Shown here: positions 8,710-55,131 of the stretch, piece after piece | How the letters are laid out: every line of letters begins with the position of its first letter | Position numbering within the stretch: position 1 is the stretch's first letter | Virus record (IMG/VR): IMGVR_UViG_3300014206_000007 | Location: 128,001 to 192,000 of that record | Length of the DNA: 64,000 nt | Direction: 5' to 3' (one strand) | From: a virus | Lineage: Duplodnaviria; Caudoviricetes | Notes under the pieces: model-generated | Database searches by the model: none | The model's input: only the letters and a program-made list of their open reading frames with translations | Told to the model about the DNA's origin: nothing | Position numbers and translations under genes: made by a program

Positions 8710-8954
8710 GAAAAAAATAAAAAAAAGAATCTTGAATATTGTCATAAGTAGATAAGGGTAAAACGTTGATTGATGTCTTTATCGCTCATAAATTTTTCCT
8801 ACCAAAAAGAATTTGCGATTTAAACCCAACCAAATTTTCCTAGACATTTTCAAGATTCTATAATAATAAGTATTGGAATACTTTTTATAAGGAGACTAGT
8901 CACTGCTAAGTGTAAGTCTCAGTCCAAATTACTTGTTAAACCTCATATTATTAC
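8710..8954 (-). ncRNA. Putative structured ncRNA (two long interrupted hairpins)
   Basis: No ORF. TATATATTAT motif at 8961-8970 points into it. Stems GUAAUAAU/AUUAUUAU, UUGGA/UCCAA, GAGACU/AGUCUC, AGAAUCUUGAA/UUCAAGAUUCU and AUCGC/GCGAU, ending in a long U-tract. Confidence 0.6.
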
Positions 8955-8960
8955 ACTAAA

Positions 8961-8970
8961 ATAATATATA
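8961..8970 (-). promoter_or_regulatory. Early-type phage promoter motif TATATATTAT
   Basis: The same motif (at least ATATATTAT) recurs, oriented toward downstream genes, at 489, 829, 11037, 14768, 17828, 27816 and 50161 (-) and at 36352, 55091, 56501 and 57962 (+). Confidence 0.65.
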
Positions 8971-8976
8971 TTTATT

Positions 8977-9279
8977 TTAATTGATTATACTCCATATTAT
9001 TAGTATTATATTCGATATCGCTGATAATCTAAATAATGTTAAATATAAATTATATTGTGATTCAACAGTTTTGAATCGGTGAAGTAAATCTTCAGTTGTA
9101 CATTCATCACATGAATATACATCCATTCCCATATTATAATAATCTTTTCCAAGAATAGGAATTATAAGATTCTCTCTAAAATATTTCCTAAGATTTTCAT
9201 ACTGCATTAGGCGAATATTTTTAGTCACAATCTCCTCTTCTTCATCCTCTTCATCGAATATTACTTTTTCATTTTCCAT
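8977..9279 (-). CDS. Hypothetical protein with C-terminal TM segment
   Basis: Overlaps the RNase H stop. GGAGG RBS. Confidence 0.7.
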   Translation of the reverse strand: MENEKVIFDEEDEEEEIVTKNIRLMQYENLRKYFRENLIIPILGKDYYNMGMDVYSCDECTTEDLLHRFKTVESQYNLYLTLFRLSAISNIILIIWSIIN

Positions 9280-9772
9280 TTTTACCTCCCGATAAATGAT
9301 GCTTTGATTTCTTCTTTTTAGGATTACCTAAAAGATTCTTTACATCTACTCCTATTAGACAGGATTCTTTGGCAAGTTGGTCAACTAAATCATTATAGTA
9401 TACTCCAGAATGAGATTTGACTTTACAAAAATGAATGTCCATTTTAGTTTTATAAAAGTCATAATCTTCTTTATATTTGGTAGTATATTGATTGTTACAC
9501 TTCCATCCACCTAATGCCCATTCACTAATTCCTGTATAATCATAGTATATATTTATTTTTTTTATACTATTTTCATATGCATATTTCATTGCCTCAGTGG
9601 AAGATAATATCTCTCCACCAACATTTCGCATATTACAATATCCTGGGTCAGTTACAAATCCTGACCGTTTTTCTATCAATTCTTCATTATGAATCAAAAT
9701 AACGCCATATGCACACATATGCAGTTTCTTATTATACGATCCATCGACATACGCATCAATTTCTTCATACAT
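9269..9772 (-). CDS. rnhA: Ribonuclease HI
   Basis: YVDGS, RNVGGEI, IYYDYTGI and KVKSHSG..YNDLVDQLAK carry the RNase HI catalytic motifs. Confidence 0.92.
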   Translation of the reverse strand: MYEEIDAYVDGSYNKKLHMCAYGVILIHNEELIEKRSGFVTDPGYCNMRNVGGEILSSTEAMKYAYENSIKKINIYYDYTGISEWALGGWKCNNQYTTKYKEDYDFYKTKMDIHFCKVKSHSGVYYNDLVDQLAKESCLIGVDVKNLLGNPKKKKSKHHLSGGKNGK

Positions 9773-9791
9773 TTATATTCCTCCTTTATTT

Positions 9792-10958
9792 TTACATATA
9801 TTTAACTATAGTTATTGATTTTTTTGCTCTGGATACTGCAGTATAACTAGCCTTTCTATTTAAGTCTTTATCCCAGAAAAATTCATCTATGAATAATACA
9901 TTATCGGCTTCAGAGCCTTGTGATAGATGACTAGTGATAGCATAACCATATTCAAACTTATTAAAATTACTCATACCATATTCATTTCTTTCATTAAACT
10001 CTAGTCTGATATACTTATAGTCTAATTCAACATCTTCAAATACTTCAGTATCTAGAAAGTCTGGTCTAAAATCAATTGATAGATATCCCTTATATAAAGA
10101 ACTTTTATCAATAGATTCAACATAACCAATTAATCCGTTAGTTAGAAAGAATTGTCCAATATAATGATCTCTATTATTTTGACGACATATAAGTTTATCT
10201 CCAATAACAGGGTCTATTGATGTTCGGTGTAGAACATCTTCCCTTATCTTGCGATTTAACATCTCTCTTGTCTTATTTTTCTTGCAAATTATCATATCAT
10301 AATCAGTTAAAAGCGACTTATCGATTGAATGATAATCAATTACTCTTGATGCCCCATATGTCCCAGTTCTTATTGGTTCACCTTTTAATATCATTTGAGT
10401 AAACATTACTATTGGGTCATTTTCTTTTTGTCGCATTAATTGAGTCAATATGAAATCAGGTTTTAACATTACCGATGAGATTCCAAATACTGGTGGCAAT
10501 TGATTTATATCACCAATGAAAACTACTGGAATACCAAATGATAAAATCAAATCTTTCATCTTATCATTTACCATTGTAGCTTCATCAATAATAATCAATT
10601 TTAAATTTGGGTCTAATTTATCTTTTAATGCAAATTTTAATCTAATTTTTGGTTTTTCCGTCGAATTTGCTGGAGGATTAATTACCTCTGGATAGACATT
10701 GTATATTAAAGAATGAATAGTTGATGCTCTCAACCCCTTTCTTAATAATACTAAAACGGCTTTTCCTACATAAGCTGCAGTAATAAACTCATCTTCTTTT
10801 AATTTTAATTCATCTATAAGAGCATTTATTACTGTAGTTTTTCCAGTACCAGGGGCACCGGAATATGCAAAATATGGCTTTACTCTTTTAAAATACCATG
10901 ATTTTAATTTTTGAATCAGTATTTTTTGCTCATCGGTTAAAATTATATCTGGTTCCAA
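9792..10958 (-). CDS. SF1B helicase, Dda/RecD-like
   Basis: GAPGTGKT, IIDEATMV, GDINQLPPV, LTQLMRQ, YAITSHLSQGSE, YTAVSRAK. Confidence 0.92.
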   Translation of the reverse strand: MEPDIILTDEQKILIQKLKSWYFKRVKPYFAYSGAPGTGKTTVINALIDELKLKEDEFITAAYVGKAVLVLLRKGLRASTIHSLIYNVYPEVINPPANSTEKPKIRLKFALKDKLDPNLKLIIIDEATMVNDKMKDLILSFGIPVVFIGDINQLPPVFGISSVMLKPDFILTQLMRQKENDPIVMFTQMILKGEPIRTGTYGASRVIDYHSIDKSLLTDYDMIICKKNKTREMLNRKIREDVLHRTSIDPVIGDKLICRQNNRDHYIGQFFLTNGLIGYVESIDKSSLYKGYLSIDFRPDFLDTEVFEDVELDYKYIRLEFNERNEYGMSNFNKFEYGYAITSHLSQGSEADNVLFIDEFFWDKDLNRKASYTAVSRAKKSITIVKYM

Positions 10959-11070
10959 TCATATCACATCCTTACTCTATTTTATTATGCTCTTTATAAT
11001 TTAGATTTTATTATAGTAGAACCTTTTATTAATATAATAATATATAATGCAAAATGAGGTGAGGTGTTTT

Positions 11071-11454
11071 ATGAATATATTTAATCCTTCAAACATAGAA
11101 AAATGGGAACTTGGTGATACTGAAATTGGTAGAATTTGTATATCCCCAAGAGTATATGCAAATAGTAATTTACAGTTAAATATACCAAAGTTAATGCCAT
11201 TAATTCCGTTAGGAAGACCAAAAGTAACTAACATTTCTCTCTCAAATAGTTGTTATGCAAATGCTAATAATATAGCAATATCAAGAACTATTGGGACACA
11301 GAATTTTATTACTGTATCGCATCAAGCAAATAGATCATTTAGTAATGAATATTTGTCATATGGAGATACTGTATTAGTCGAGGTTCATAATAAGAACCCT
11401 GATACTATATTTTTATCTACAAAAATAGATAGTTCGTACAATTTATATGACTAG
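11071..11454 (+). CDS. Hypothetical virion protein (possibly baseplate OB-fold)
   Basis: Start moved to ATG 11071 behind GAGGTG. Lies next to a gp53-like gene. Fold assignment is weak. Confidence 0.45.
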   Translation: MNIFNPSNIEKWELGDTEIGRICISPRVYANSNLQLNIPKLMPLIPLGRPKVTNISLSNSCYANANNIAISRTIGTQNFITVSHQANRSFSNEYLSYGDTVLVEVHNKNPDTIFLSTKIDSSYNLYD

Positions 11455-11465
11455 GAGGTTGGTCT

Positions 11466-11903
11466 ATGATGCAAATGGGAAAGGAGTACACTATTGAAGA
11501 GTTTATCAAGGAATATAACCAAGAAACTATCAATTATGGTACTCTGCACTTAAAAGAAGTATTTCAAAAAGATGATGGCAACTTAAGCATTTTAAGTTCA
11601 GAATCAGTACTAAGCAATTATGATGATGAATTAAAAAAATATGTAGTTACATTGACATTAACCGATAGCGAATTTAATAAGTTTCAATATAATCCAAAAT
11701 TTTTATCTTTTGAATTATATAATACTACTGAACTATGGTTTATGTTATTACATGCTAATGAATTATATTATTCTGGGCAATTTGATATAAACCCAATAAA
11801 GGTATATTCATCCGATATCGTCAATATAATTGATAGAATACTAAATCTAGAAAAGCAATATATTGATTTAAATAGAGAGGACGTAAGTGCTCAACTAGGA
11901 TAA
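11466..11903 (+). CDS. Baseplate wedge protein, T4 gp53/LysM-like
   Basis: YNPKFLSFELYNTTELWFMLLHAN resembles the gp53-family P..LS..LY....LW...L.AN motif. Confidence 0.7.
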   Translation: MMQMGKEYTIEEFIKEYNQETINYGTLHLKEVFQKDDGNLSILSSESVLSNYDDELKKYVVTLTLTDSEFNKFQYNPKFLSFELYNTTELWFMLLHANELYYSGQFDINPIKVYSSDIVNIIDRILNLEKQYIDLNREDVSAQLG

Positions 11904-11936
11904 AAAAAGAACTATGCACAATGCATAGTTCTTTTT
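11903..11936. terminator. Bidirectional terminator between convergent genes
   Basis: aaaaagaactatgca / tgcatagttcttttt. Confidence 0.85.
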
Positions 11937-11946
11937 ATTTCTTATA

Positions 11947-13605
11947 TTATGCACTCTTTAATAATCCAGTCATTTCAATTGACTTTAATACTGAATTATT
12001 TCCAGTTGCATTCATTTTTGTTACTTTAGGTCTTGATACAGAGCCATCTTTTAATTCTTTTTCAGCTATTGACTCTAAATCACTTGCCAATGATATAACT
12101 GATACTGGCTTATCTTTATCGACATCAACTGCTAATCTTATATTCTTTTCATTTACGAATGGATGATTAAAATAATCCACTGATATTGGGTCTTTCTTAC
12201 CTCTAATTTTCAATCGTTTAAATGTTAAGAATAAATTATTTGTTGATTTTTGCAATTCAAGATTTATTAAACCTACCCAGTCAGATTCTTCGATTAAATC
12301 CCAACATACTCCAACCGATGATGTTCCTATGAATTGAGCAACATCTTGTTTATTATCTCTCATTGCGGCATCTATAATAGAATTCCCCTCTCTATTAATC
12401 TGCATCGCTGTTATTACTGGTATTTCAAAGAATTGTGCTAATGATTTTAATTCTTTAGAAGCATATGATATTCTAATTCTTTCCTCACCATTATTATCAT
12501 GAGTTGACTCTATTCTTTTAATATAGTCTAATAGTACACATATTACTTCTTTACCAACATCTTCCAATTCTTTTATTACTGTATAGATATATGAAGTATT
12601 AATCTCTAAATTAGCAAAGTATCTTATTTCAATATCAATACCTGTATAATCATTAAACATGAATTTTCCATTTTCTTGTAGTATCTTAACTACGTCTTCC
12701 GGAGTTTTGTCATACAATTCATCATTTACTTCACTATACATATCATACAGTCTAAGCACTGTTTCCTCTATAGAGTTTTCCATAGTTATAAATAATATCG
12801 TTTTTCTCATTCCATTTTCGAATGGTTTTATCTGCGGGTTATAAAGTCTTATCTGGTCCGCAATATTTAATAGTGTTCCAGATTTAAACTTACCCGTTCC
12901 CCCTAATATAGTATATAGTCTTCCAGATTGAAATCCGGGGGATAGTATTGCGTTTAGTTGCCTAATTCCAGTTTGTAATATGGATGATGGTCTTTTTGCT
13001 TTATCAACGATTATTCTCATTAAATCTTCGAAATTATCGTTTGAAAAGTTAAATGACCTTAATAATCCATTTCCAATTGCTGAATTTTGAATATTTACTA
13101 ATAAATTACTTAATTTTCCTTTTAATTCGTTCATAACCGCAAAATATGATACTTGATTTGGGTTATCGAGTTTTTCTAATAATTCTATAATTGCATCTTT
13201 TTCTTTAAATACGTATAAATATTGCAACCTTTCATTGATTGCTTTTGATATAAATTCTGTTTCAGATTTACTTAATTGATTAGGGGTTAAAGATACTGAT
13301 TTTAATATTTCCTCAAACCCCTGATTGTTATTTAATATGAATGAAATGATTACATTTTCATCCTTCAAATTATTTACAACTGTTGCTTCACAAAGTGATT
13401 TAACTAGTTTTACTTTATCCTGTATATCAGGACTATAATTATATGCCTCTGCATCGACATATTTCATCAATTTATTTAAATTTATTAATTGATTATTTGA
13501 AATAAATTCACATCTTATATATTTAATTAACGAATTTAACATCGCTATATCAAATTTTATATTAATAGTATCGCTATTTTCGGTACGACGTTTGACTTTC
13601 GGCAT
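11947..13605 (-). CDS. dnaB: Replicative DnaB-like (SF4) helicase
   Basis: TGIRQLN, GGTGKFKS Walker A, FITMEN, LDYIKR, LKSLAQ..IPVITAMQINR. Confidence 0.9.
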   Translation of the reverse strand: MPKVKRRTENSDTINIKFDIAMLNSLIKYIRCEFISNNQLINLNKLMKYVDAEAYNYSPDIQDKVKLVKSLCEATVVNNLKDENVIISFILNNNQGFEEILKSVSLTPNQLSKSETEFISKAINERLQYLYVFKEKDAIIELLEKLDNPNQVSYFAVMNELKGKLSNLLVNIQNSAIGNGLLRSFNFSNDNFEDLMRIIVDKAKRPSSILQTGIRQLNAILSPGFQSGRLYTILGGTGKFKSGTLLNIADQIRLYNPQIKPFENGMRKTILFITMENSIEETVLRLYDMYSEVNDELYDKTPEDVVKILQENGKFMFNDYTGIDIEIRYFANLEINTSYIYTVIKELEDVGKEVICVLLDYIKRIESTHDNNGEERIRISYASKELKSLAQFFEIPVITAMQINREGNSIIDAAMRDNKQDVAQFIGTSSVGVCWDLIEESDWVGLINLELQKSTNNLFLTFKRLKIRGKKDPISVDYFNHPFVNEKNIRLAVDVDKDKPVSVISLASDLESIAEKELKDGSVSRPKVTKMNATGNNSVLKSIEMTGLLKSA

Positions 13606-13655
13606 TTGTCCCCCTCCTCCAAATTATGATTGTATTTCTCCTATTTTTAATAAGT

Positions 13656-13667
13656 TATCCGACTGTT
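13656..13667 (-). promoter_or_regulatory. Late-type phage promoter AACA-N6-TA
   Basis: AACA-GTCGGA-TA upstream of dnaB. Confidence 0.55.
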
Positions 13668-13693
13668 TTAAATCAATTTTTTTCTAGAAATAG

Positions 13694-14287
13694 TTACTGC
13701 TCTATGTTTTTATAGAGCAGTAATAAATCTGGATTAATTTCATTAATAACTGCCATAACTCTCGGAGATAATTTCTCAAAATATACACAAACGTTTGAAT
13801 CTCTTTTAATTGCTTCAAGAATCAAATCATCTGGAGGATTATTAATATATTTAATACAAGCAGGATTCTCATTGATAAGATTTTTAATATAATCATATCG
13901 AAGATCCTTAAATTCGAAATTTTGTAATAAAGATGGATCTGCACTAAATGCTTTTTCTTTAAGTCCTTCGTCCAGTATTTCCTCTGGAACATACATAATT
14001 GACTTAGGACAATTATTGGTGGCTATATATGCCATTTTTCTAGTAATTTTTATGTCAGTAAACTTTTTTCTTATGTATTTTAAATTATGCCCATCAATAC
14101 CAAGAGCAAACTCACACATCTGTTCAGATGGTGCTTTCATATGTTTAAAAATTCCAGGTTCTCTTTCGATACAAAACTTCCATACATCATCATCAATATA
14201 TTTATTTTTGAATAATAGTATAGCAGTCGGGTCATCGACTAACAAGTTTAAAACTTTGTATTTCATTGATTCATTATTCTCAATCAT
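13694..14287 (-). CDS. Helical-repeat protein (DUF4116-like)
   Basis: Repeats of the type A...D...LKYI / NP.CIKYI.NP. Confidence 0.55.
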   Translation of the reverse strand: MIENNESMKYKVLNLLVDDPTAILLFKNKYIDDDVWKFCIEREPGIFKHMKAPSEQMCEFALGIDGHNLKYIRKKFTDIKITRKMAYIATNNCPKSIMYVPEEILDEGLKEKAFSADPSLLQNFEFKDLRYDYIKNLINENPACIKYINNPPDDLILEAIKRDSNVCVYFEKLSPRVMAVINEINPDLLLLYKNIEQ

Positions 14288-14302
14288 ACATTTCCCGCCC
14301 CT

Positions 14303-14728
14303 TTATTTTAGTTTACATACTAATATCTCAATATCAGTATCACCAAACACTTTAAAAATTAAAAGTTTTACTTTATCCCAATCTAGTTTATCTAAATTAG
14401 ATGCGATTGTTGGCATTGCTATCTTATTAATACTACTTATGACACATATATCTCTCATAAATATTAGTGCTTTTTCTACACTTTGATAAGTCGGTTTATC
14501 GTAATATCTTGCTTTAGTTATTAAATTTATTATTCTTTTTACTCGAATGCATACAGGATGCTTTCGAGTTTCTATTGGATATTGTAATAATGTTTCTCTT
14601 ACATGAAAACGTGATTCTATTGAGGCAGCTATTCCTGCACCCATTGCACAATCACTACTTATACAATGGGCTATATAATATGATTGGTCCACTGTAAATA
14701 TATCTTTTTTAATTTCACTAAATTTCAC
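14303..14728 (-). CDS. Macrodomain ADP-ribosyl hydrolase, TARG1/Poa1/DarG-like
   Basis: DIF, IAHCISSDCAMGAGIA, NLITK..Y.KPTY, IAMP.IAS.LDKLDW. The start is GTG. Confidence 0.88.
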   Translation of the reverse strand: MKFSEIKKDIFTVDQSYYIAHCISSDCAMGAGIAASIESRFHVRETLLQYPIETRKHPVCIRVKRIINLITKARYYDKPTYQSVEKALIFMRDICVISSINKIAMPTIASNLDKLDWDKVKLLIFKVFGDTDIEILVCKLK

Positions 14729-14844
14729 AACGTCATCTCCTATTTTCTTATTTTAATCGTCATGTAAATAATATATATCTAATTGTCGGCTCTAACTTTT
14801 TTTTATAAAATGCATAAAAAAAGAAGACAATCATTGTCTTCTTT

Positions 14845-15999
14845 TTATGTTATATATTTATTGACTACTTTTTGAATTTTATCAATTGGAATTTCCTTAT
14901 TCTTATATTCCAAAATGAATTTTTGAATTACTTCTGCTTTACTTAATGATTTATCAAAAATAAATTCATATTTATTTTTTACTTCAGTATTTCTCTTTTT
15001 CTTTTCATCTTTTTTATTTGACTTAAGCTTATTCTTAGTTACAATTTTTACAGATTTATTATTAATAAAATATTGTTTGATTGACATAATGAATGTATCA
15101 TTAATATCTTTTTCATCTGTAATATTAATTACAACACGGATCTTTTGCTTTTTGTCTTTACTAATTTCATGGTCAATATTTTTAATAAATGCAGTATAAT
15201 CTTGAATTATAGTATACATATGTGTATCGATATTATATGTTATATAATCCATCGCAAATTCATTTTTAATCTTTTTATAAAAATATTTATTTGTATCTGT
15301 ATCAATTTGAATAAATCCAAATCCTTTACTTTGCATTTCATTAAACGACCATCTATCATAACTTCCTATATAAATTAATGAATCTAATTCGGTTCCATCA
15401 TGCCAGTGCCCTGCAACCATAGGGCCTTGAATTATTTTAGACCAGAAATTGTATTCATAAATTATACTCTTCATTGAAGTTTCTTCTGATAATTGCACAA
15501 CTATATCAGGCAATACAATATCAAAACTTCCATGAAAGAATCCGATATTAGGAAACTTCAATAAATTATCGATATATTTTACCTTATAGTCTTTTGCATT
15601 AATATTTTCATCAGGACAGTATAAACACTTTAATTCAGGAAGAGTTTCTTCATAAGTATTAACATTGAATATTTTAAAGAATCCAGATTCATCTTCTAGC
15701 TCTCTAAATGATTCAAGCTGCTCATTATCATGCTCTTTTGTCCCTTTTATTACTCTGATCTTTTTAACCCCATTCTGCTTAGCAGTGGAGTATAATCTAT
15801 TCATCCATTGTATCGCACTGATTGCAGATTGACTATTGAGTGGAAGTTGCGAGTGGAAATAATCCCCTAATATAACAACTAAATCAATATTTCTATATCT
15901 TTGTAAAAATATCAAAAATAATTCTAGATTTTCATATTGTAATTGAGGTTCCATTACTCCGTAATGTACATCGGCTAAAGTAAGAATATTATATTTCAA
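14845..15999 (-). CDS. sbcD: SbcD/Mre11-like metallophosphoesterase nuclease
   Basis: ADVHYG, LGDYFH, GTKEHD, FHG and GHWH motifs. Confidence 0.85.
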   Translation of the reverse strand: MKYNILTLADVHYGVMEPQLQYENLELFLIFLQRYRNIDLVVILGDYFHSQLPLNSQSAISAIQWMNRLYSTAKQNGVKKIRVIKGTKEHDNEQLESFRELEDESGFFKIFNVNTYEETLPELKCLYCPDENINAKDYKVKYIDNLLKFPNIGFFHGSFDIVLPDIVVQLSEETSMKSIIYEYNFWSKIIQGPMVAGHWHDGTELDSLIYIGSYDRWSFNEMQSKGFGFIQIDTDTNKYFYKKIKNEFAMDYITYNIDTHMYTIIQDYTAFIKNIDHEISKDKKQKIRVVINITDEKDINDTFIMSIKQYFINNKSVKIVTKNKLKSNKKDEKKKRNTEVKNKYEFIFDKSLSKAEVIQKFILEYKNKEIPIDKIQKVVNKYIT

Positions 16000-16080
16000 A
16001 TGTCTACCTCCTTATATAAAATCGGAATATACGAACTTAATATAATGTAAGATCGTATATTCAATTTTAAGTTGTAATAA

Positions 16081-16461
16081 TTAAAAGCCTATTGTAATTG
16101 ATTTCTTTTCAGCTGAATTAGAGTCAAAAGCATTATCATATGTTATCTCTCTGACTAATGTTATAAAATTAGGAATATTAACCATTTCAGTCTCTGCTGA
16201 GACATATGTTATTAAAATAGCATAAGCCGATTCCTCGGAATAAATTTCTAGTATAAAATGATCAGTAAGATCAAAAAGTTTATCGTAATAATCAAAACAA
16301 TATACTTGCTTTTGTGATAATTTATCAACATCTATTATATCTTCCCAACAACAATTCTTTTTTATACATTCTTTAATTAGATCTACCCAATAACAGTTCT
16401 TTTTGATATATTCAATATCAGGCATCATTATAAGAAATTTTCTTTCAAATATAGGGTTCAT
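16081..16461 (-). CDS. Degenerate CYTH-like protein
   Basis: N-terminal FERKFLI and C-terminal IP.FI..VREIT.D..F.. resemble the ends of a CYTH domain. Confidence 0.45.
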   Translation of the reverse strand: MNPIFERKFLIMMPDIEYIKKNCYWVDLIKECIKKNCCWEDIIDVDKLSQKQVYCFDYYDKLFDLTDHFILEIYSEESAYAILITYVSAETEMVNIPNFITLVREITYDNAFDSNSAEKKSITIGF

Positions 16462-17759: not shown

Positions 17760-17855
17760 ACTCCCCTAATAAAAATGATTGATATTTAATTATTATAAAG
17801 TTTACAATTTTTTAATATTATATAAATATAATATATAATTAAAGAGGTGAAGTAA

Positions 17856-18509: not shown

Positions 18510-18510
18510 A

Positions 18511-18522
18511 AACAATGGGATA
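18511..18522 (+). promoter_or_regulatory. Late-type phage promoter AACA-N6-TA
   Basis: AACA-ATGGGA-TA upstream of 18552. Confidence 0.6.
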
Positions 18523-18551
18523 AATTAATAAATGAATTCAAATAAAATTAA

Positions 18552-19562: not shown

Positions 19563-19619
19563 TAATAAATAAAGACTATGCATACACATAGTCTTTATTT
19601 TAATTTTTAGGAGGGATAA

Positions 19620-19838: not shown

Positions 19839-19873
19839 AAAATAGGAGGATATAAAAGTATCCTCCTATTTTT
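19837..19873 (+). terminator. Intrinsic terminator
   Basis: aaaataggaggata / tatcctcctatttt. Confidence 0.8.
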
Positions 19874-19892
19874 ACCACGAATTAATACAAAA

Positions 19893-19904
19893 AACAATCT
19901 CATA
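19893..19904 (+). promoter_or_regulatory. Late-type phage promoter AACA-N6-TA
   Basis: AACA-ATCTCA-TA upstream of 19942. Confidence 0.6.
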
Positions 19905-36265: not shown

Positions 36266-36367
36266 TTATTTCAACTCCTTTTTACTTAAGAATATTAATA
36301 ACTTTGTTAATGCTTATTTAGAGTATTAACAGTATCTTATTAAATTGTAAATATATATTATTTTAGT

Positions 36368-36542
36368 AAGAAATAAAATAACACCCCCCTTCACCCCTCG
36401 TAATAGGTAAAAGCAGGCGCAGTAAATAAGCCTAAACAAATTTCCGTTTGGAGTTCCTATTCTCCTCCTTACTATTATAGTCCTAATACCGATAGGTCAT
36501 AATAGATTTAAAAAGAGATTGCATATGCAATCTCTTTTTTTT
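36368..36542 (+). ncRNA. Putative sRNA with C-rich anti-Shine-Dalgarno tracts
   Basis: TATATATTAT at 36352-36361 and terminator aaaagagattgca/tgcaatctctttt plus U-tract at 36511-36542. No ORF. Stems AAUAGG/CCUAUU, AGGC/GCCU and CUAUUAU/AUAAUAG. Confidence 0.55.
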
Positions 36543-36548
36543 GTTATC

Positions 36549-48062: not shown

Positions 48063-49475
48063 TTACTCCTCATTATCTGATGGAGAAGCAGATGTATGAA
48101 TATCTACCTCAGCATTACCTTTCAATTCCACTTCACTTGATACTCCGCCAATATAAACAGCTCCGGTTTCGATATTCACTGCTGGTTCTTTAGGAGCTCT
48201 TGGACGCCTTGGTTGAGAATTTATCATTGAAATCATTTGTTCTCTTGTATACGGTCCATCGTCTTCGATTATTTCATAATCACTTGGCATAAATGGACCA
48301 TCTTCCTGATTTACTCTTTTAAGAGTTTCTTCATACTGCGGTCTTCTGCTATCAGCATAAAATTCTTCTTCTTCATCGTCATCTTCTTCAACAGTTGCTT
48401 CGCTAATAAATTTGACAATCTTATCCTGATCTTCAGCTAAACGAGATATAACTCTTTCCATAGTACCCATACTTTTCTTTAAATTAGTAAGTTCTCTTTG
48501 AGTTTTATCATCGCATATTACGGGTGCTACTGGAGTTCTTGTTGGTGCGGGAGCTTTCATATCTGATACTTTTCTATTTTTTAGATAGTTTTCAATTACG
48601 TAAGCATCTGATTGATTTATTCCAGTTTGTGTATTTGCTACCTGTTGTACAAATGATGCTAATTTTGAATAATTGTCACTCATAATATCTAGACGGCTAA
48701 TGATATCATCTTTATCATAACGATCTAAATCATCGTCATCATCATCTTCGTCGTCCTCGTCATCATCATCGTAAAACTCATCATCGTCATCTATAAATCG
48801 AGGTGAAGGTTTTACCTTTTTTTTTGACTTTTTTGATAAATGTTTTTCCATGTATGATGATAATTCGTCATCATCGTCCTCGTCATCATCATAAAAATCA
48901 TAGTCTTTGCTTAACGCCTTTGAAATAAATATATCGTCGTCATCGTCATCATAGAAACCGCCGCCGATTCCATTGTATTTACGATTTACCAAACTATTTA
49001 AAGCTGAATATTTCTTCTTATATTGTTTTTTCCTTGAGACAATATTCAATTGCTTTCTAAGTTTCTTGATTGCATCCTTATAAAGTTCTTTGATATATTC
49101 GTATTCTTTCAATTGATCTTTGTCTTTTTTCTTACCCTTTTTCTGAGCTTTCTTGAAGTTTCTTTCAAGTTCAGTAATTCTAGCATCAATCTGCACAAGT
49201 TCATCTATGCTTGAATAAATACTAGGAGTATTTGTCATTTTGATTAATTGATCAATTCCGAAATCTACAAATAATGCCAGATGCTCTTTATTGCTTCTGC
49301 AATCATTTATTCTTGATACAAGATGCTTATATCCATAAACATCATAAATTACATTATCCACATTCTCAATGTAGATAAGTTGACCATATGAATCTATTAC
49401 TAGATTCTTAATCTTTTTCATAATGAACTTAATCATTACTATAGATTTTTCTGTTATATCATTTTTATTGATCAT
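48063..49475 (-). CDS. Hypothetical protein with basic coiled coil and poly-Asp tracts
   Basis: 470-aa ORF with low-complexity acidic runs. Confidence 0.8.
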   Translation of the reverse strand: MINKNDITEKSIVMIKFIMKKIKNLVIDSYGQLIYIENVDNVIYDVYGYKHLVSRINDCRSNKEHLALFVDFGIDQLIKMTNTPSIYSSIDELVQIDARITELERNFKKAQKKGKKKDKDQLKEYEYIKELYKDAIKKLRKQLNIVSRKKQYKKKYSALNSLVNRKYNGIGGGFYDDDDDDIFISKALSKDYDFYDDDEDDDDELSSYMEKHLSKKSKKKVKPSPRFIDDDDEFYDDDDEDDEDDDDDDLDRYDKDDIISRLDIMSDNYSKLASFVQQVANTQTGINQSDAYVIENYLKNRKVSDMKAPAPTRTPVAPVICDDKTQRELTNLKKSMGTMERVISRLAEDQDKIVKFISEATVEEDDDEEEEFYADSRRPQYEETLKRVNQEDGPFMPSDYEIIEDDGPYTREQMISMINSQPRRPRAPKEPAVNIETGAVYIGGVSSEVELKGNAEVDIHTSASPSDNEE

Positions 49476-49505
49476 ATCTTATTTCACATCCTTTTTTAGT
49501 TTAAT

Positions 49506-50006
49506 TTAAAAATCATCATCGTCGTCATCGTCAAAGTCGTCGGCATCTTCATCAAATAATTCTTCTTCATCTTCTTCTTCCAAATCAAAATTATCGATAG
49601 TTGGAGATAGATTTTCAAGATCAGCATCAGACCAGCCAGTTTCTTCTTCAATAACTCTTATTAATGTCTTATACAAGAATTCGTCAATTGTACTTAATTT
49701 CAATGTAAGTACTTTTTCAATTATGTCATCTTTGCGATTCTGAAGTTTCCATTTTAATGAATCTGGAGCACTTTCGAGTATCTTGTCATATGCTTTCTTG
49801 AGATACTGCTCGTCGAAATAGTTAATAGGATTGTATCCTAGGGTCTTATCATAAACTTCGCCCATCTCACTTCTATCATCTGATGGATTCATAAGTTTTA
49901 ATAGATAATCAACATCTCTTTCAGACTCTGCTGTAACAGTTCTCATTAGGTAATCCCAAAAAGGTCTACCTTTCAATTGATCTAAACTCTTCATTTTGTC
50001 TAGCAT
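49506..50006 (-). CDS. Hypothetical protein with very acidic C-terminal tail
   Basis: Start moved to MLDKMK behind GAAGGGAG. Ends ...DDDDDDF. Confidence 0.75.
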   Translation of the reverse strand: MLDKMKSLDQLKGRPFWDYLMRTVTAESERDVDYLLKLMNPSDDRSEMGEVYDKTLGYNPINYFDEQYLKKAYDKILESAPDSLKWKLQNRKDDIIEKVLTLKLSTIDEFLYKTLIRVIEEETGWSDADLENLSPTIDNFDLEEEDEEELFDEDADDFDDDDDDDF

Positions 50007-50243
50007 ATTTTTTATTTCTCCCTTCAAAATTTTAATAAATTTGTGTTAGTTGTTACATATATCATTGTATAAATATGATTTTTTATTTACTAATACTATA
50101 CAGATTCTAGTCCGCTACGAATATTCTAAAACCTGCTCGTTTTACCCTTTATCTGTAGTAATAATATATATCTATTTTTGATAATAAATAATGATTTTTC
50201 TCTATAAAATGAGATAAAAAGACATATAATTTTTATATACAAA

Positions 50244-50255
50244 AACATTCTGTTA
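50244..50255 (+). promoter_or_regulatory. Late-type phage promoter AACA-N6-TA
   Basis: AACA-TTCTGT-TA upstream of the RNAP gene. Confidence 0.6.
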
Positions 50256-50301
50256 ATTATAGGTAAAGATAATATTAAAATAATTAAGGATGGTGATATA
50301 A

Positions 50302-53300
50302 ATGCTTTACGATCAAATCGTACCAATGCGATTATATAATAATCAAACAAAATTACTACTACCTCGTGGGGATAAAGTAGGGTTTTTTAATGCAATATTT
50401 ATGCTATCAAAAAATCAAAATTTTACATTAAATATAATGAATACAGAGTTTTTTGGAGATAGGGAATCATATTATAAATACTATTATATCGAATCGATAT
50501 ATAAGACAAAAATCGGTCCAAAGAATGTCATCCAAAATAAAAAGAAAGAAGTTATTGATAACTTCACAGCTATGAAATTTGCGGATCATATAAAATTCGT
50601 TCCGTATAGTTCAAGAAAAACGCATTTTTCAAAAGGTTTTAATACGATAATTGACTTAGGAAAATGGCATGAATTATTTTTCCAATACATAATTAAAACT
50701 ACTCCTAAGTTTGTATGTGAAAGTTACATTAATTACTTAATGTCAAGAGTAAATGAATCATTCTTCAATGAATATGAAAAAGTTCTTTTCATTGATTTAT
50801 ATGATTGGATTGGTAATACTAAAGAAGGAGAAAAGGCAATAAAAATTAGTTCTAAATCTCTAGATAACCCAATAAATATTATACTATATACATTATATAA
50901 ATTTCCAGAGTTAGTTTTAACTTTAGGTAAATTAGATGTTATAATAGCCGATTCTAAATCTAATCAGTTTTTAAAGATTCCAAGTTCTAAATTGAATAAA
51001 CTTAATATTCAGAAAATAAAAACATTATTAACACAATTTGATGGACTGGAATTTATTGAAGAAGAGTTAGAAGCTCAAATTGACCCAAATACCGCATCTG
51101 TTAATAAAATAGTAAATAAAATTATACCAACTTCTTCTAAAGATGAGATTGAAAAAAGAAAAATGAATATTATTAATTCATTAAAGCATAATCTTGTAGG
51201 AGATATTGATGATATTTCTGATGAAGTTATTGATGACCAGCATAATACTGATTCAATAAAACTCGAAGATGATGATGAAGATCAATTAATAACTAAGACG
51301 GCAAATGATTACCTTGATGAGAATCAAGAATTATTATCTGGTGTAGATGATAAAGATGTATTGAAAGAACTTGAAGAGTTCATCAAGAAAAGAGTTTATG
51401 TAGCAAAAATACTTCCAACTAAATCTCCAAAAGAAATGGAACGAATTCAAGAGCTTCAAGATATACAGAAAAGTGTAATTGGATTACCATCTTTTGAAGA
51501 TTTAAAAAGCAAAATGGTTGATGAAACAGATTTTTCAGATTTTGTTACTACGGCAAATCCTAACATAGTAAAATCATCATATGTTAATTTCGATAAAAAC
51601 TATAACCAAAAGAAATTAGAAAAGGATATAGATAATTCCGTCGGAATATTAAGTAGAGCTATGCATGGTATTTACATTACTGATAAAACTGAAGAAGATG
51701 CATCAGACCAATTGAATTTGAAGAAGACAGTAACTTACTCATTAGAAGATGAACGTGGAAAGAAAATGGCTCTTAAATTTGATATTCCTATAATATTAGA
51801 AGATAAATATCTTTATATTAACGGATCAAAAAAGACCATTCAACATCAGCTAATTTTAAAACCTTTAGTTAAAACTTCTCCAAATACAGTTCAGATAGTT
51901 TCATTCTACAATAAAATCTTTATTGAAAGAAAGGGTGATACAGAATTAATTGCTTCATCTTTGAAAAAGTTTTTATTGAAAAATTCAGAAGAATTTAAAC
52001 TTAAATTTGGAAATGCATTAGTTAAAAATAATGAATATCGAACTTCACTTGAATTCGATATATTAGCAAAAAATATATATAGCTTTACAATTGGCCAAAA
52101 TGTATTTATTACAGATATAAATGACCTCCATTCTATATTAACTAAAAATAATATTCCATTTGATAAAATAGACCAAAAGAAATATTTTATTACTGGGTAT
52201 AATAAAAAGACAAAAGAAGTCTTATATATTGACAAGAAAACTGACTATAGTGAGCACATTATGTCATTTATGTCAGACTCAGATAAGAGCCAATTAGCAA
52301 ATCAAAAAGTTGGTAAGAGACTTATGTATGCTCAATGTACAATAATGGAAAAACATATTCCACTAATATTATTTATGTTATTCTGTGATGGTTTTAAATC
52401 AGTTATGGAAAAATCAAATGTTGAATATAAAATAATTGATAAAAATGAAGCAGAAAAATATGATAAATTTGTATATGGAGTAACTCAATTAGCTGATAAA
52501 GCTATATTATGGAAAAGATATCCATTACAAAATTCATTATTGATGAATGGATTGCAACCTCTTCAAATGGAATTATATTCATCAGAAGAGCTAGAAAGTA
52601 AAGAAACTTATATCTATTTATTATCACAATATTATGCATATGCAAATATGGCATTTAACTTAGATCAGTATAAAGACTTTATGATTGATGATGTTACTAA
52701 AGAAATTTTAATGGACTTCAATCTCCCAACTGATTTAGTATCACTATTGGCATATTCAGCAACATTATTGTCTGATAATGAGTATATACCAGAAAATGAT
52801 TTAAATAATATGAGAATTCGTAGCAATGAATTAATACCTTTCCATATTTATAATACAGTAGTAAAAGCATATAATTCTTATAGAAAGACACAACATAAAA
52901 AGAATCCTACTAAAATATCAGTTAAGCAAGATGCTGTTATTTCAGCAATAATGGAATCAAAATTAATTGAAGAGCATTCTGTTTTAAATCCTGTCTTGGA
53001 ATTAGAGAAAAATAGAGCAGTTACTTATAAAGGAGATAGAGGTATTAACTTAGAGAAAGCTATGACAATTTCAAAGCGTGGTTATGATGAGTCTATGCTT
53101 GGAATATTAGGTATATCTACTAGTACCGATGCAAACGTTGGTATTGTAAGACAGTTAACATTAGAGCCTAATATAACTTCAACTAGAGGATATATTCAAA
53201 CCACTGGTTTAAAAAATGTTGATAAATTAAATTCCGCTAATCTATTAACACCTGCTGAATTATTGACTCCTCTTGGAGTCCAACATGATGACCCAACGCG

Positions 53301-54495
53301 TACATCAATGGCATATAAGCAATCAAAATATATGCTCATGATTGAAGATTCAGACCCTGTTATGATTGGTAATAAAGTAGAATCAATTGTTCCATATCAT
53401 ATGTCAGATGAATTTACTATTGTCTCAGACGATAATGGTAAAGTTATTGATGTTGATAATGGACTAATAGTTATCCAATATAACAATGGAGCATATAAAA
53501 CTATTGATACTAATCCACAAGTTAAGAAAAATTCATCTTCAGGTTTCTATGTTAAGAATACATTAACATGTGAATTAAAACTGAATGATAAAGTAAAAAA
53601 AGGCCAAATATTGGCATATAATAAAAATGCATTTAAACGAGGTTTCGATAACGATGATGTATCAATGAATTTAGGAGCATTAGCTAAAGTAGCATGTGTT
53701 CCAAACTGGGATATATTTGAAGATAGTAAACCTATAACAAAATCATTATCTGAAAGAATGGCATCTGTTATGCTTTCTGAAAAAGAAGTAGCTTTAAGCA
53801 AAAATTCATATGTAGACTTTATGGTTAATATCGGTGACCATGTAAATACTGGAGACGTATTAATAAAATTTGATAGTGCTCATGATGACCCATTTGCTGC
53901 CGCTTTTCTAGATGCAATAAGAGAAGACCAGAAAGAAGATATAATTGCAGATAATATTACAACTATAGCATCAAAATTTACAGGTGTAGTTGCAGATATC
54001 AAAATATACTGCACAGTTGACCCAAATGAACTAAGTCCATCATTAGAGAAAATCGTAAAATCATATTATCGTAGAGTAAATAAGAAAATTAATATACTAG
54101 ATAAATATTCTAATGAAGGAGATAGTAGTTATTATAAGAGTGGTAATTTAATAACTGAAGTTCCAGAAAAGATTACCCCAAATATACAAGGAAAGATAAG
54201 AGGAACAAAAGTTGATGAAGGAGTATTAGTTGTATTCTACATTGAATATAAGGATTTAATGAGTAAAGGAGATAAATCATGTTCTGAATTTGCATTGAAA
54301 GGTATAGTATCTCATGTAATTGAGGAAGGATTAGAACCTTATTCTGAATTTAGACCTGAGGAAGAAATATCTACATTTGTAGCTCCTTTGGCAGTATCAG
54401 CAAGAAAGACTCCGTCATTATTTTTAGCAATGTTTGGTAATAAACTTCTTATTGAAGCTAAGAATCAGTTAAGAGAAATTTATTACGAAGAATAG
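50302..54495 (+). CDS. Phage multisubunit RNA polymerase beta subunit (N-terminal/major part, probably virion RNAP, phiKZ gp178-like)
   Basis: YLYINGSKK, TSTDANVGIVRQL, QHDDPTRTSMAYKQ, DIFEDS, GDKSCSEFALKGIVS and APLAVSARK align with the RpoB motifs. It ends before the RpoB C-terminal region. Confidence 0.92.
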   Translation: MLYDQIVPMRLYNNQTKLLLPRGDKVGFFNAIFMLSKNQNFTLNIMNTEFFGDRESYYKYYYIESIYKTKIGPKNVIQNKKKEVIDNFTAMKFADHIKFVPYSSRKTHFSKGFNTIIDLGKWHELFFQYIIKTTPKFVCESYINYLMSRVNESFFNEYEKVLFIDLYDWIGNTKEGEKAIKISSKSLDNPINIILYTLYKFPELVLTLGKLDVIIADSKSNQFLKIPSSKLNKLNIQKIKTLLTQFDGLEFIEEELEAQIDPNTASVNKIVNKIIPTSSKDEIEKRKMNIINSLKHNLVGDIDDISDEVIDDQHNTDSIKLEDDDEDQLITKTANDYLDENQELLSGVDDKDVLKELEEFIKKRVYVAKILPTKSPKEMERIQELQDIQKSVIGLPSFEDLKSKMVDETDFSDFVTTANPNIVKSSYVNFDKNYNQKKLEKDIDNSVGILSRAMHGIYITDKTEEDASDQLNLKKTVTYSLEDERGKKMALKFDIPIILEDKYLYINGSKKTIQHQLILKPLVKTSPNTVQIVSFYNKIFIERKGDTELIASSLKKFLLKNSEEFKLKFGNALVKNNEYRTSLEFDILAKNIYSFTIGQNVFITDINDLHSILTKNNIPFDKIDQKKYFITGYNKKTKEVLYIDKKTDYSEHIMSFMSDSDKSQLANQKVGKRLMYAQCTIMEKHIPLILFMLFCDGFKSVMEKSNVEYKIIDKNEAEKYDKFVYGVTQLADKAILWKRYPLQNSLLMNGLQPLQMELYSSEELESKETYIYLLSQYYAYANMAFNLDQYKDFMIDDVTKEILMDFNLPTDLVSLLAYSATLLSDNEYIPENDLNNMRIRSNELIPFHIYNTVVKAYNSYRKTQHKKNPTKISVKQDAVISAIMESKLIEEHSVLNPVLELEKNRAVTYKGDRGINLEKAMTISKRGYDESMLGILGISTSTDANVGIVRQLTLEPNITSTRGYIQTTGLKNVDKLNSANLLTPAELLTPLGVQHDDPTRTSMAYKQSKYMLMIEDSDPVMIGNKVESIVPYHMSDEFTIVSDDNGKVIDVDNGLIVIQYNNGAYKTIDTNPQVKKNSSSGFYVKNTLTCELKLNDKVKKGQILAYNKNAFKRGFDNDDVSMNLGALAKVACVPNWDIFEDSKPITKSLSERMASVMLSEKEVALSKNSYVDFMVNIGDHVNTGDVLIKFDSAHDDPFAAAFLDAIREDQKEDIIADNITTIASKFTGVVADIKIYCTVDPNELSPSLEKIVKSYYRRVNKKINILDKYSNEGDSSYYKSGNLITEVPEKITPNIQGKIRGTKVDEGVLVVFYIEYKDLMSKGDKSCSEFALKGIVSHVIEEGLEPYSEFRPEEEISTFVAPLAVSARKTPSLFLAMFGNKLLIEAKNQLREIYYEE

Positions 54496-54496
54496 A

Positions 54497-54538
54497 AAAG
54501 AATGGATATTGTAGAAAAAATCTACAATATCCATTCTT
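54497..54538. terminator. Bidirectional terminator
   Basis: aagaatggatattgtaga / tctacaatatccattctt. Confidence 0.9.
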
Positions 54539-54674
54539 GATTTATTTAAAGACCTCGACTTGTTATAATAAACATTCAGGTTGGGAGTGTATCCGTTTTA
54601 ATAATAATATAAATAAAAGATATTATTTTAAAAAGCGCGAATACTCATATGCTTTATTATAAGTCGAGATCATT
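54497..54674 (-). ncRNA. Putative about 180-nt rod-shaped ncRNA, convergent with the RNAP gene
   Basis: AACA-TAAGAA-TA at 54674..54685. Rod 54551-54671 with GAUCUCGACUU/AAGUCGAGGUC, AUAAUAAA/UUUAUUAU, GAGU/ACUC, AUUCG/CGGAU and AAUAAUAU/AUAUUAUU. Confidence 0.6.
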
Positions 54675-55131
54675 ATTCTTATGTTATGTAAAATTTTACA
54701 AAAATATTCAAAATATGCTATAATTCATTTTGCTCGATATTTAATAGTCAAAAAATAGTAAAAAAAATCAATCGAAATTTTAATGATATATTTATTATAT
54801 AAATAAATTTAGTATAATTTAAATAAAAAATAAAAAATTTAATATAAGAAATAATATAAAAGATTTTTGTAATTAAGTATAAATATTTAACAGTATATGA
54901 TATCTAAAATAAATTAAAATGAAAAATTGTAATAACATAATATGTTTTATATGTAAAAAGAATAATATAAATAAATTAAGAAATAATTAGAAAAAATAAT
55001 ATCCTTAATAAAAAATAAATATATCTTTGATGTATTAAAGTCGGAATTTTTCTTTTTTCCTATCTCCCTTCAAATAAAAACTTTTAAATAATATATTATA
55101 ATTATAGTATATTAAATAAAGGAGAGATAAT

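What the first reader, a model, noticed from the sequence alone, without database searches (positions are those of the whole stretch)
8710..54685. A phage ncRNA layer: four ORF-free transcription units, each with its own phage promoter and terminator
Seen: four of the largest intergenic gaps each start at one of the two promoter motifs that also precede the protein genes and end in a hairpin plus U-tract. Each contains extensive helices, and in three of them the G-U pairs agree with the promoter direction. Two are early-type (8710-8954 - and 36368-36542 +) and two are late-type (46498-47231 - and 54497-54674 -). Inference: this jumbo phage runs a timed programme of structured RNAs that gene callers miss. 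I do not recognise any of them as tRNA, tmRNA, RNase P, SRP or an intron.
Basis: partly seen in the sequence, partly recalled or inferred. Interest (0 to 1): 0.8.

Follow-up and report, generated by a model that had tools for sequence, protein, structure and literature searches.

The report
Conserved large phage RNA, plus three weaker candidates
Of four gene-free stretches in this giant phage that carry their own phage promoters, one is a roughly 540-740-base RNA whose folded shape is kept in nine related phages and matches no described RNA family, one is a likely small RNA, and two are only plausible.

Summary
The window is part of a 219,918-bp jumbo phage that uses the two promoter types described for Bacillus phage AR9. 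The observation largely holds. The four gaps are the largest in the window and have no conserved or ribosome-site-led ORF. Each starts at an exact promoter motif, and three end in canonical terminators. The four units are not equivalent.

- **R3 (46498-47231, minus)** is a real, conserved, structured RNA. Nine syntenic phages keep the same late promoter, two hairpins with invariant AUGGUAU tips and covarying stems (0 of 500 shuffles reach the observed score), a conserved 3' block and two terminators. Rfam has no match.
- **R4 (54497-54674, minus)** is probably a small rod-shaped RNA. Support comes from only one close relative.
- **R1 (8710-8954, minus)** is plausible. Its end is non-canonical, and relatives carry comparable early ORF-free units nearby.
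- **R2 (36368-36542, plus)** sits in a variable slot, and its body folds no better than shuffled sequence.

No public RNA run was listed, so expression and timing are untested. R3's function is unknown. My best guess is a late protein-binding scaffold or decoy. The same scan had already noted R2, R3 and R4 separately on this same genome, but not on other DNA.

The parts
47253..47320 (-). Terminator hairpin and U-run of the 191-aa gene, immediately upstream of the R3 promoter
   Evidence: Read from the sequence. A terminator occupies the same position in all relatives.
47231..47242 (-). R3 late promoter AACAAAAAAATA, predicted start at 47231
   Evidence: Exact AACA-N6-TA, rank 40 of 126 genome sites. 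The motif stands at the same place in eight aligned phages, exact in seven and with N7 spacing in L002, and in L038.
47186..47225 (-). R3 domain H1: extended hairpin with the invariant tip UAUGGUAUA (47208-47200)
   Evidence: 10-bp helix, 87.5% of cells paired, 7 pairs changed on both sides, 0 of 500 shuffles reach the score. z -3.2.
47018..47184 (-). R3 central Y-shaped domain: a long closing stem and two or three hairpins
   Evidence: The same architecture appears in independent MFE folds of eight phages. Pairwise compensatory changes exceed the slid controls. MAFFT could not align this part across all phages.
46950..47020 (-). R3 domain H2: extended hairpin with the invariant tip AAUGGUAUU (46993-46985)
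   Evidence: 9-bp helix, 95.8% paired, 6 pairs changed on both sides, 7 G-U cells and no A-C cells, 0 of 500 shuffles. The covariance model hits once per phage, at the syntenic site only.
46746..46773 (-). R3 conserved block AUCUAAUCAAUAAAGUUUUGAGGAAAAC
   Evidence: Almost invariant in 6 of the 8 aligned phages and present in L038. Its complement occurs nowhere else in the genome.
46719..46740 (-). R3 internal short hairpin with a U-run (T1), a possible first 3' end
   Evidence: Conserved position with covarying stem. Too weak to be listed by the terminator scan.
46495..46541 (-). R3 strong terminator (T2): 17-bp stem, 7 G-C pairs, U-run
   Evidence: A terminator stands here in every relative that reaches this point.
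46467..46478 (-). Separate late promoter of the 3289-aa tape-measure-like gene (start at 46467)
   Evidence: Rank 9 of 126. It makes R3 a separate transcription unit.
54759..54798 (-). Conserved block with ATATATCATT, an early-like promoter variant about 105 nt upstream of the R4 late motif
   Evidence: 90% identical to L031, against 42-69% in the neighbouring spacer. Recognisable in six phages. The same motif precedes the RNA polymerase beta gene here and in relatives.
54674..54685 (-). R4 late motif AACATAAGAATA, predicted start at 54674
   Evidence: Exact motif but rank 90 of 126. Conserved in L031.
54551..54671 (-). R4 rod: 9-bp closing helix GAUCUCGAC/GUCGAGGUC and an irregular stem
   Evidence: z -4.7 without the terminator. 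The arms are 82-85% identical to L031, which is the level of coding sequence. Of 12 variable pairs, 7 stay paired, against 1-3 in the slid controls and 3 on the opposite strand.
54498..54538 (.). Bidirectional terminator shared by R4 and the RNA polymerase beta gene
   Evidence: Listed on both strands. The stem sequence is replaced in L031 but still forms a hairpin.
36352..36368 (+). R2 early promoter TATATATTAT-N6-A (start at 36368). An extra late-type motif lies at 36328-36339.
   Evidence: The early motif is identical in L031. The late motif is not conserved there.
36374..36505 (+). R2 body: C-rich 5' tract, conserved CUCCUCC (36460-36472) and a hairpin at 36472-36505
   Evidence: z -1.2, no compensatory support. 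83% identical to L031, like the flanking genes. The slot is variable in L033 and L032.
36510..36547 (.). Palindromic terminator shared by R2 and the tape-measure-like gene: 8 U on the plus strand, 5 U on the minus strand
   Evidence: and the sequence itself.
8954..8970 (-). R1 early promoter TATATATTAT-N6-G (start at 8954)
   Evidence: Exact match to the AR9 consensus including G at +1.
8711..8953 (-). R1 body: a 5' domain, then a domain of about 130 nt closed by an 11-bp helix and followed by a U8-A-U7 run
   Evidence: 3' domain z -3.3. No canonical terminator. The first ~75 nt resemble L036 5662-5979, with a covarying hairpin.

Best explanation
The four units are not one kind of thing.

**R3** is an independently transcribed, non-coding, multi-domain RNA. 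It runs about 500 nt to the internal U-tailed hairpin and 734 nt to the strong terminator. It is made from an AR9-type late promoter and lies between a highly conserved 191-aa gene and the giant tape-measure-like gene. The sequence comparison shows conserved transcription signals and a conserved fold on the minus strand.

By inference, R3 acts in trans as an RNA-protein scaffold or decoy. Its two hairpins present the same invariant AUGGUAU tip about 180-240 nt apart. They would bind two copies or a dimer of one phage or host protein late in infection. No complementary RNA target exists in the phage genome.

**R4** is probably a small rod-shaped RNA of about 125-180 nt that ends at the RNA polymerase gene's bidirectional terminator. 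It may be made from both an upstream early-like promoter and the late motif.

**R1 and R2** are short early-promoter transcripts in variable slots. They may be regulatory RNAs, with R2 carrying an anti-Shine-Dalgarno CUCCUCC tract. They could equally be untranslated leftovers or leaders.
For: **R3**
- Order and spacing of promoter, H1, H2, conserved block, T1, T2 and the next promoter are the same in nine phages. In these phages the tape-measure protein is only 43-75% identical to the window's where measured.
- The H1 and H2 stems covary, with 0 of 500 shuffles reaching the score and slid controls far lower.
- In six pairwise comparisons the compensatory double changes on a single-sequence MFE fold number 10, 28, 15, 13, 23 and 19. 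Slid controls give 1-3, 3-10, 1-5, 2-4, 3-8 and 4-9.
- G-U-mediated single changes are about twice as frequent on the sense strand.
- The minus strand has 31 G-U pairs against 7 on the plus strand, and a 58 kcal/mol difference between strands.
- No ORF is conserved.
- The H2 covariance model hits once per phage, only at the syntenic site, E <= 2.5e-7.
- The conserved motifs have no complement elsewhere in the genome.

**R4:**

**R1:** comparable early ORF-free units sit in L036 and L037 at the equivalent module.

**R2:** the early promoter and CUCCUCC tract are conserved in L031.

**Promoter classes:**
Against: - No transcript data exist for any unit.
- The protein-binding mechanism for R3 is inference only. 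The neighbouring 191-aa protein has no recognisable fold.
- Folding z-scores for R3 are similar on both strands. Strand choice therefore rests on G-U pairs and on the direction of promoter and terminators.
- R4 is supported by one relative at 80% identity. Its own G-U count slightly favours the other strand, and more distant phages show no alignable rod.
- The R2 body is not structured beyond chance and shows no compensatory changes. It folds better on the opposite strand.
- R1 lacks a canonical terminator and could be a long early leader of the 2022-aa gene. Its overall identity to the L036 unit (49%) is within the shuffled range.
Confidence: 0.6

Rival explanations
1. R3 acts in cis. It is a long structured leader or insulator that tunes transcription into the giant tape-measure-like gene, for example by regulated read-through of T1 and T2, and has no trans function.
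For: It lies directly upstream of that gene in every phage, on the same strand, with two terminators of different strength in series.
Against: The gene has its own strong late promoter after T2 (rank 9 of 126), conserved in the relatives. T2 is a 17-bp terminator. A leader would not need 500 nt of conserved architecture with two identical hairpin tips.
Confidence: 0.15
2. The conserved hairpins of R3 act at the DNA level, as a replication origin, packaging site or protein-binding cruciforms, and not as RNA.
For: Inverted repeats fold on both strands, and folding z-scores are similar on both. Many relatives' contigs break at this gap.
Against: The stems hold G-U pairs that would be A-C mismatches on the other strand: 7 G-U and no A-C cells in H2. 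MFE pairs are 31 against 7, and G-U-mediated changes are enriched on the sense strand. The unit is framed by a conserved promoter and terminators on the same strand. The contig breaks are explained by the long palindromic terminator just upstream.
Confidence: 0.05
3. R1, R2 and R4 are not functional RNAs. They are by-products: an early leader of the 2022-aa gene (R1), a promoter left over from a lost small gene that runs into a shared terminator (R2), and spurious late initiation before a bidirectional terminator (R4).
For: R1 has no canonical terminator. The R2 slot holds a 66-aa ORF in L033 and nothing in L032, and the R2 body has z -1.2. The R4 motif ranks 90 of 126, and both terminators are needed by the converging genes anyway.
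Against: The R4 arms are conserved at coding level while the neighbouring spacer is not, and variable pairs stay paired. The R2 terminator has the longer U-run on the R2 strand. The R2 body shows no similarity to the L033 ORF. R1-like early ORF-free units recur in two other phages.
Confidence: 0.35

Closest known systems
Large ornate, often phage- or prophage-borne RNAs of unknown function (GOLLD, ROOL; Weinberg et al. 2017, PMC5737381; cryo-EM in PMC12286853)
   Same: R3 is several hundred nucleotides long, multi-domain, non-coding, carried by a phage of Gram-positive-type hosts (strong AGGAGG ribosome sites), supported by covariation, and of unknown function.
   Different: No Rfam model matches, even at E <= 10. 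R3 is not next to tRNA genes. It is very AT-rich (22% G+C). It sits in a fixed place in the tail-gene module and is driven by a phage RNA polymerase promoter. Oligomer formation was not tested.
Long non-coding RNAs seen in phage transcriptomes (phage K lncRNAs, PMC9241854; antisense and long-leader transcripts of AR9, PMC5312081)
   Same: They are phage-encoded, abundant or promoter-driven non-coding transcripts without an assigned role. AR9 uses the same two promoter classes.
   Different: Those were found by RNA-seq and lack a conserved-structure analysis. R3 has the structure and conservation but no expression data. No homologue of the flanking 191-aa or 470-aa proteins exists in 50,697 GenBank phage records.
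Protein-sequestering RNAs with repeated hairpin tips (CsrB/RsmZ type); from my own knowledge
   Same: The same short sequence is presented at the tips of separate hairpins in one RNA. This is the logic I propose for the two AUGGUAU tips.
   Different: There are only two sites, and the tip is GGU, not the GGA that CsrA recognises. No partner is known. This is a likeness in logic, not membership.
6S RNA (raised for R4 by another first-reader note)
   Same: An irregular rod of about 120 nt next to an RNA polymerase gene.
   Different: No Rfam 6S match at E <= 10. R4 is shorter than bacterial 6S (about 180 nt, from my own knowledge). A central open-promoter-like bubble was neither shown nor conserved.
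C-rich anti-Shine-Dalgarno sRNAs of Firmicutes (RoxS/RsaE type; from my own knowledge), for R2
   Same: R2 has unpaired C-rich and CUCCUCC tracts complementary to the AGGAGG ribosome sites used by this phage and its presumed host.
   Different: No Rfam match. The fold is not better than chance. It is conserved only in the closest relative, and no target was identified.

Membership tests
AR9-type late (non-virion RNA polymerase) promoter | AACA-N6-TA/G with the last base as the start (PMC5312081) | tested here: met
   Exact motif at R3 (47242-47231) and R4 (54685-54674). The motif is 5.3-fold enriched in intergenic DNA. The R3 motif is conserved in the relatives.
AR9-type late (non-virion RNA polymerase) promoter | Transcription actually starts there late in infection, on uracil-containing DNA | not testable with these tools
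   No RNA run listed. DNA modification is unknown.
AR9-type early (virion RNA polymerase) promoter | AAATATATATTAT-N6-purine at +1 | tested here: met
   R1 is AAATATATATTAT-TTTAGT-G and R2 is AAATATATATTAT-TTTAGT-A.
Intrinsic terminator | Short G+C-containing hairpin directly followed by a U-run | tested here: met
   Met for R2, R3 and R4. Not met for R1, which has only a long-range 11-bp helix before the U-run.
Any Rfam family (including GOLLD, ROOL, 6S, phage pRNA, tmRNA, RNase P, introns) | Covariance-model score at or above the curated threshold | tested here: not met
   No hit at gathering score in the window or in seven related loci. Only chance-level hits at E <= 10 in the four gaps.
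Structured non-coding RNA (general criteria), R3 | Base pairs kept through compensatory changes in relatives, above controls | tested here: met
Structured non-coding RNA (general criteria), R3 | No conserved protein-coding potential | tested here: met
   No ribosome-site-led ORF. The window's 45-aa and 27-aa ORFs are absent from L031.
Structured non-coding RNA (general criteria), R4 | Base pairs kept through compensatory changes in relatives, above controls | tested here: inconclusive
   One relative only: 2 compensatory and 5 one-sided changes among 12 variable pairs.
Structured non-coding RNA (general criteria), R2 | Fold better than shuffled sequence and supported by covariation | tested here: not met
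   z -1.2, and 0 compensatory changes.
Structured non-coding RNA (general criteria), R1 | Fold better than shuffled sequence and supported by covariation | tested here: inconclusive
   3' domain z -3.3, 5' domain z -1.3. One possible covarying hairpin against L036, but overall identity is at chance level.

The most novel reading that the evidence does not exclude
R3 founds a new class of large ornate RNA, specific to an uncultivated clade of AR9-like jumbo phages from landfill, wastewater and digester communities. It is made late beside the tail genes and has a dedicated role in virion or tail assembly or in host takeover. Examples would be a scaffold that binds the conserved 191-aa protein, or an RNA-only assembly like GOLLD and ROOL. 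In this reading R1, R4 and the 430-nt unit in L037 show that such phages carry several unrelated structured RNAs under their own polymerases' promoters.
Probability: 0.25. Interest if true: 0.85.

Novelty: new member of a known kind. Interest (0 to 1): 0.66.

Why it matters
Few large structured bacterial or phage RNAs have been described, and their functions are still largely unknown. R3 adds one with clear covariation, a fixed genomic place and a defined promoter class. That makes it a tractable target for structure probing, cryo-EM and partner searches.

It also shows that jumbo phages with their own multisubunit RNA polymerases can devote whole transcription units to RNA products that gene callers skip. 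The largest 'empty' gap of this genome is in fact its best-conserved non-coding element.

The negative part matters too. An orphan promoter plus a terminator is not enough to call a structured RNA, as R2 shows.

Tried and rejected
- **RNA evidence.** No RNA holder was listed for window 46300-55200.
- **IMG/VR.** No relatives turned up by RNA polymerase beta, by the 191-aa protein profile or by a conserved R3 DNA pattern. The 15 pattern hits, L016-L030, were chance.
- **GenBank phages.** No DNA or protein match for the genes flanking R3. The nearest cultured phages by RNA polymerase beta are Listeria LPJP1, the Staphylococcus S6/MarsHill group and Bacillus Goe21, at about 30-34% identity. The LPJP1 locus is not syntenic and gives no H2 model hit.
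- **R1 relatives.** The 2022-aa neighbour of R1 has no full-length relative, so R1 lacks a close comparison. Searching L031's assembly for the rest of that phage was not possible.
- **The 191-aa protein.** The AlphaFold model was too poor to search with (pLDDT 47), and the Atlas look-up gave nothing usable. 'HU-like' is therefore unsupported.
- **Small-protein reading of R2's minus strand.** A 56-codon open frame follows AAGGAGGAG. I rejected it because it has no start codon and the frame is broken in L031.
- **R2 as a decayed copy of the L033 66-aa gene.** No similarity.
- **Base-pairing targets for R3 motifs in the phage genome.** None found.
- **L004.** It has a G+C-rich gene directly after the 189-aa gene. 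I treated it as a chimeric or unrelated join and left it out.


Full report
**Setting.** The window is bases 128001-192000 of a 219,918-bp virus record with terminal repeats. It is AT-rich (22-33% G+C) and uses strong AGGAGG ribosome sites. It encodes a 1397-aa RNA polymerase beta-like protein. The nearest cultured relatives of that protein are Listeria phage LPJP1, the Staphylococcus S6/MarsHill group and Bacillus phage Goe21, at about 30-34% identity. 'AR9-like, but distant' is therefore a fair description.

**Promoters.** Exact TATATATTAT occurs 47 times in the genome, 37 of them in the 9.3% that is intergenic. Most copies point at a start codon 30-60 nt away. Exact AACA-N6-TA occurs 126 times, 62 intergenic against 11.7 expected, and 55 of those have a same-strand gene start within 200 nt. 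These match the early (AAATATATATTAT-N6-G) and late (AACA-N6-TA/G) consensus determined for AR9 by dRNA-seq and primer extension (PMC5312081). There is also a late-type motif at 36339 and an early-like one at 55081.

**The gaps.** A greedy ORF call gives gaps of 344, 283, 956 and 636 nt. The 956-nt gap is the largest in the genome. No tRNA or tmRNA is present. Rfam gives nothing at curated thresholds and only chance-level hits at E <= 10. No ORF with a ribosome site is convincing.

**Relatives.** Homologues of the 470-aa and tape-measure-like proteins led to syntenic metagenomic contigs: L031 (tape-measure 75% identical), L033, L035, L032, L002/L003, L010, L007 and L038. Their loci are oriented so that the window's minus strand is their plus strand.

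**R3 (46498-47231, minus).** All nine phages keep a gap of 640-985 nt between the 191-aa gene and the giant gene. It always holds the same series of elements:
- the 191-aa gene's terminator, then AACA-N6-TA;
- 22-28 nt on, a hairpin with the invariant tip UAUGGUAUA (H1);
- a Y-shaped domain;
- 180-240 nt on, a second hairpin with the invariant tip AAUGGUAUU (H2);
- a nearly invariant block, UCUAAUCAAUAAAGUUUUGAGGAAA (recognisable in seven of the nine);
- a short U-tailed hairpin (T1);
- about 200 variable nt;
- a strong terminator (T2);
- the giant gene's own late promoter.

Independent MFE folds of eight sequences give the same domain plan.

On MAFFT alignments not fitted to any structure, the H2 helix (9 bp) is 95.8% paired, with 6 pairs changed on both sides. 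The H1 helix (10 bp) is 87.5% paired, with 7 such pairs. In both cases 0 of 500 shuffles reach the covariation score, and sliding the partner by 1-3 columns roughly halves it or worse.

I then took the MFE fold of one sequence and asked how a second sequence's substitutions fare. Compensatory double changes number 10, 28, 15, 13, 23 and 19 in six pairs. Slid controls give 1-3, 3-10, 1-5, 2-4, 3-8 and 4-9.

Strand is settled by wobble pairs. H2 holds 7 G-U cells and no A-C cells. The window's fold has 31 G-U pairs on the minus strand against 7 on the plus strand, and -194 against -136 kcal/mol. One-sided G-U-mediated changes are about twice as common on the sense strand. This also argues against a DNA-level element.

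Folding z-scores for the start-to-T1 part are:

| Phage | z |
|---|---|
| window | -4.6 |
| L031 | -7.3 |
| L033 | -5.9 |
| L002 | -5.6 |
| L007 | -4.6 |
| L032 | -3.9 |
| L035 | -2.7 |
| L010 | -1.4 |

A covariance model of H2 hits once per phage, at the syntenic site only (E <= 2.5e-7), and nowhere else in 265 kb. No ORF is conserved, because the window's 45-aa and 27-aa frames are absent from L031. The conserved motifs have no complement elsewhere in the genome. Antisense regulation of phage mRNAs is therefore unlikely. A protein partner or a host target is the more economical guess.

The upstream 191-aa protein is unusually conserved (55-87% identity in ten phages) and lysine-rich. It has no Pfam or PHROG match and no confident model. 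I name it only as a candidate partner.

**R4 (54497-54674, minus).** Without the terminator the rod has z -4.7, but also -4.4 on the other strand. Identity to L031 varies along the gap:

| Segment | Identity to L031 |
|---|---|
| gap spacer | 42-69% |
| two arms of the rod | 82-85% |
| apical part of the rod | 63% |
| RNA polymerase coding sequence | 80-93% |

Of 12 variable pairs, 2 changed on both sides and 5 through G-U. Controls give 1-3 kept pairs, and the opposite strand gives 3. More distant phages have a late motif and some hairpin in the same place, but nothing alignable.

About 105 nt upstream lies a block with ATATATCATT. It is 90% identical to L031 and recognisable in six phages. 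The same motif precedes the RNA polymerase beta gene here and in relatives. It may be a variant early promoter, in which case R4 would not be purely 'late'. The terminator is bidirectional and also ends the polymerase gene.

**R2 (36368-36542, plus).** Both flanking genes are on the minus strand, so this would be an antisense-oriented early unit. L031 keeps the promoter and a CUCCUCC tract. The body, however, has z -1.2 and folds better on the opposite strand (z -3.1). It shows no compensatory changes.

The slot is variable. L033 has an early promoter driving a 66-aa ORF there, and L032 has only 124 nt with a terminator. The window's R2 is not a decayed copy of that ORF. The shared palindromic terminator has 8 U on the R2 strand and 5 on the other. 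An early anti-Shine-Dalgarno sRNA is possible but unproven.

**R1 (8710-8954, minus).** The promoter is a perfect AR9-type early site with G at +1. The 3' end is not a canonical terminator. Instead an 11-bp helix closes a domain of about 130 nt (z -3.3), followed by U8-A-U7. The downstream 2022-aa gene has its own late promoter (start at 8680) and no relatives.

Two phages carry comparable units in the same module. L036 5662-5979 has an early promoter and about 235 ORF-free nt ending in a small terminator. L037 7222-7791 has an early-like promoter and 430 nt at 45% G+C, with z -6.4 and no Rfam match. The first ~75 nt of R1 and of the L036 unit share flanks and a covarying hairpin, but overall identity is at chance level.

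**Verdict.** The 'timed programme' is untested. R3 is a new RNA family within the known category of large phage-borne structured RNAs.

Noticed in passing
L037:7270-7705 (+): A 430-nt ORF-free stretch at 45% G+C in an otherwise AT-rich relative. It lies between an early-like promoter (ATATATCATTATAGTG) and a terminator, just upstream of that phage's giant fibre-like gene. z is -6.4 and Rfam has no match. It is a separate candidate large RNA.
   Followed up: partly
window 54783-54791 (-) and 50057-50066 (+); L031 5322, L033 6078, L002 9286: The motif ATATATCATT is conserved in the R4 gap of six phages and upstream of the RNA polymerase beta gene. It may be a third promoter class or a variant early one.
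   Followed up: partly
window 47375-47950 (-): A 191-aa lysine-rich protein is 55-87% identical across ten phages, far more conserved than its neighbours. It has no Pfam or PHROG match and a poor AlphaFold model.
   Followed up: partly
L005, L006, L009, L011, L012, L014, L001, L039 (contig ends): Many relatives' contigs stop within 30-150 nt after the 191-aa gene. L039 ends in a long perfect palindrome around that gene's terminator. The pattern looks like assembly fold-back at the hairpin and not a genome end.
   Followed up: partly
genome 75294-75984 (outside the window, 52 kb before its start): The second-largest gap of the genome (691 nt) also carries an orphan late motif (start at 75626) and an early-like motif (start at 75917). 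Further orphan motifs give predicted starts at genome 6142 and at 193062 and 193095.
   Followed up: no
L033:20993-21431 (minus strand of the locus): At the position of R2 this relative has an early promoter driving a 66-aa ORF with its own terminator. The site between the tape-measure-like gene and the 578-aa gene is therefore a variable insertion slot.
   Followed up: yes
L036:956-3364; L002 4697-9147; L008 308-4858: The 388-aa helicase of the window is an 802-aa protein with a LAGLIDADG match in L036, probably an intein. The 1397-aa RNA polymerase beta is split into 991-995 and 387-389 aa in L002 and L008.
   Followed up: no
window 36328-36339 (+): An exact late-type motif lies 29 nt upstream of the R2 early start. 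R2 could therefore be made both early and late in this phage. The motif is broken (AACC) in L031.
   Followed up: yes
L040 (Listeria phage LPJP1) 11973-13025: A 1053-nt unannotated gap lies directly upstream of the RNA polymerase beta gene of this cultured relative.
   Followed up: no
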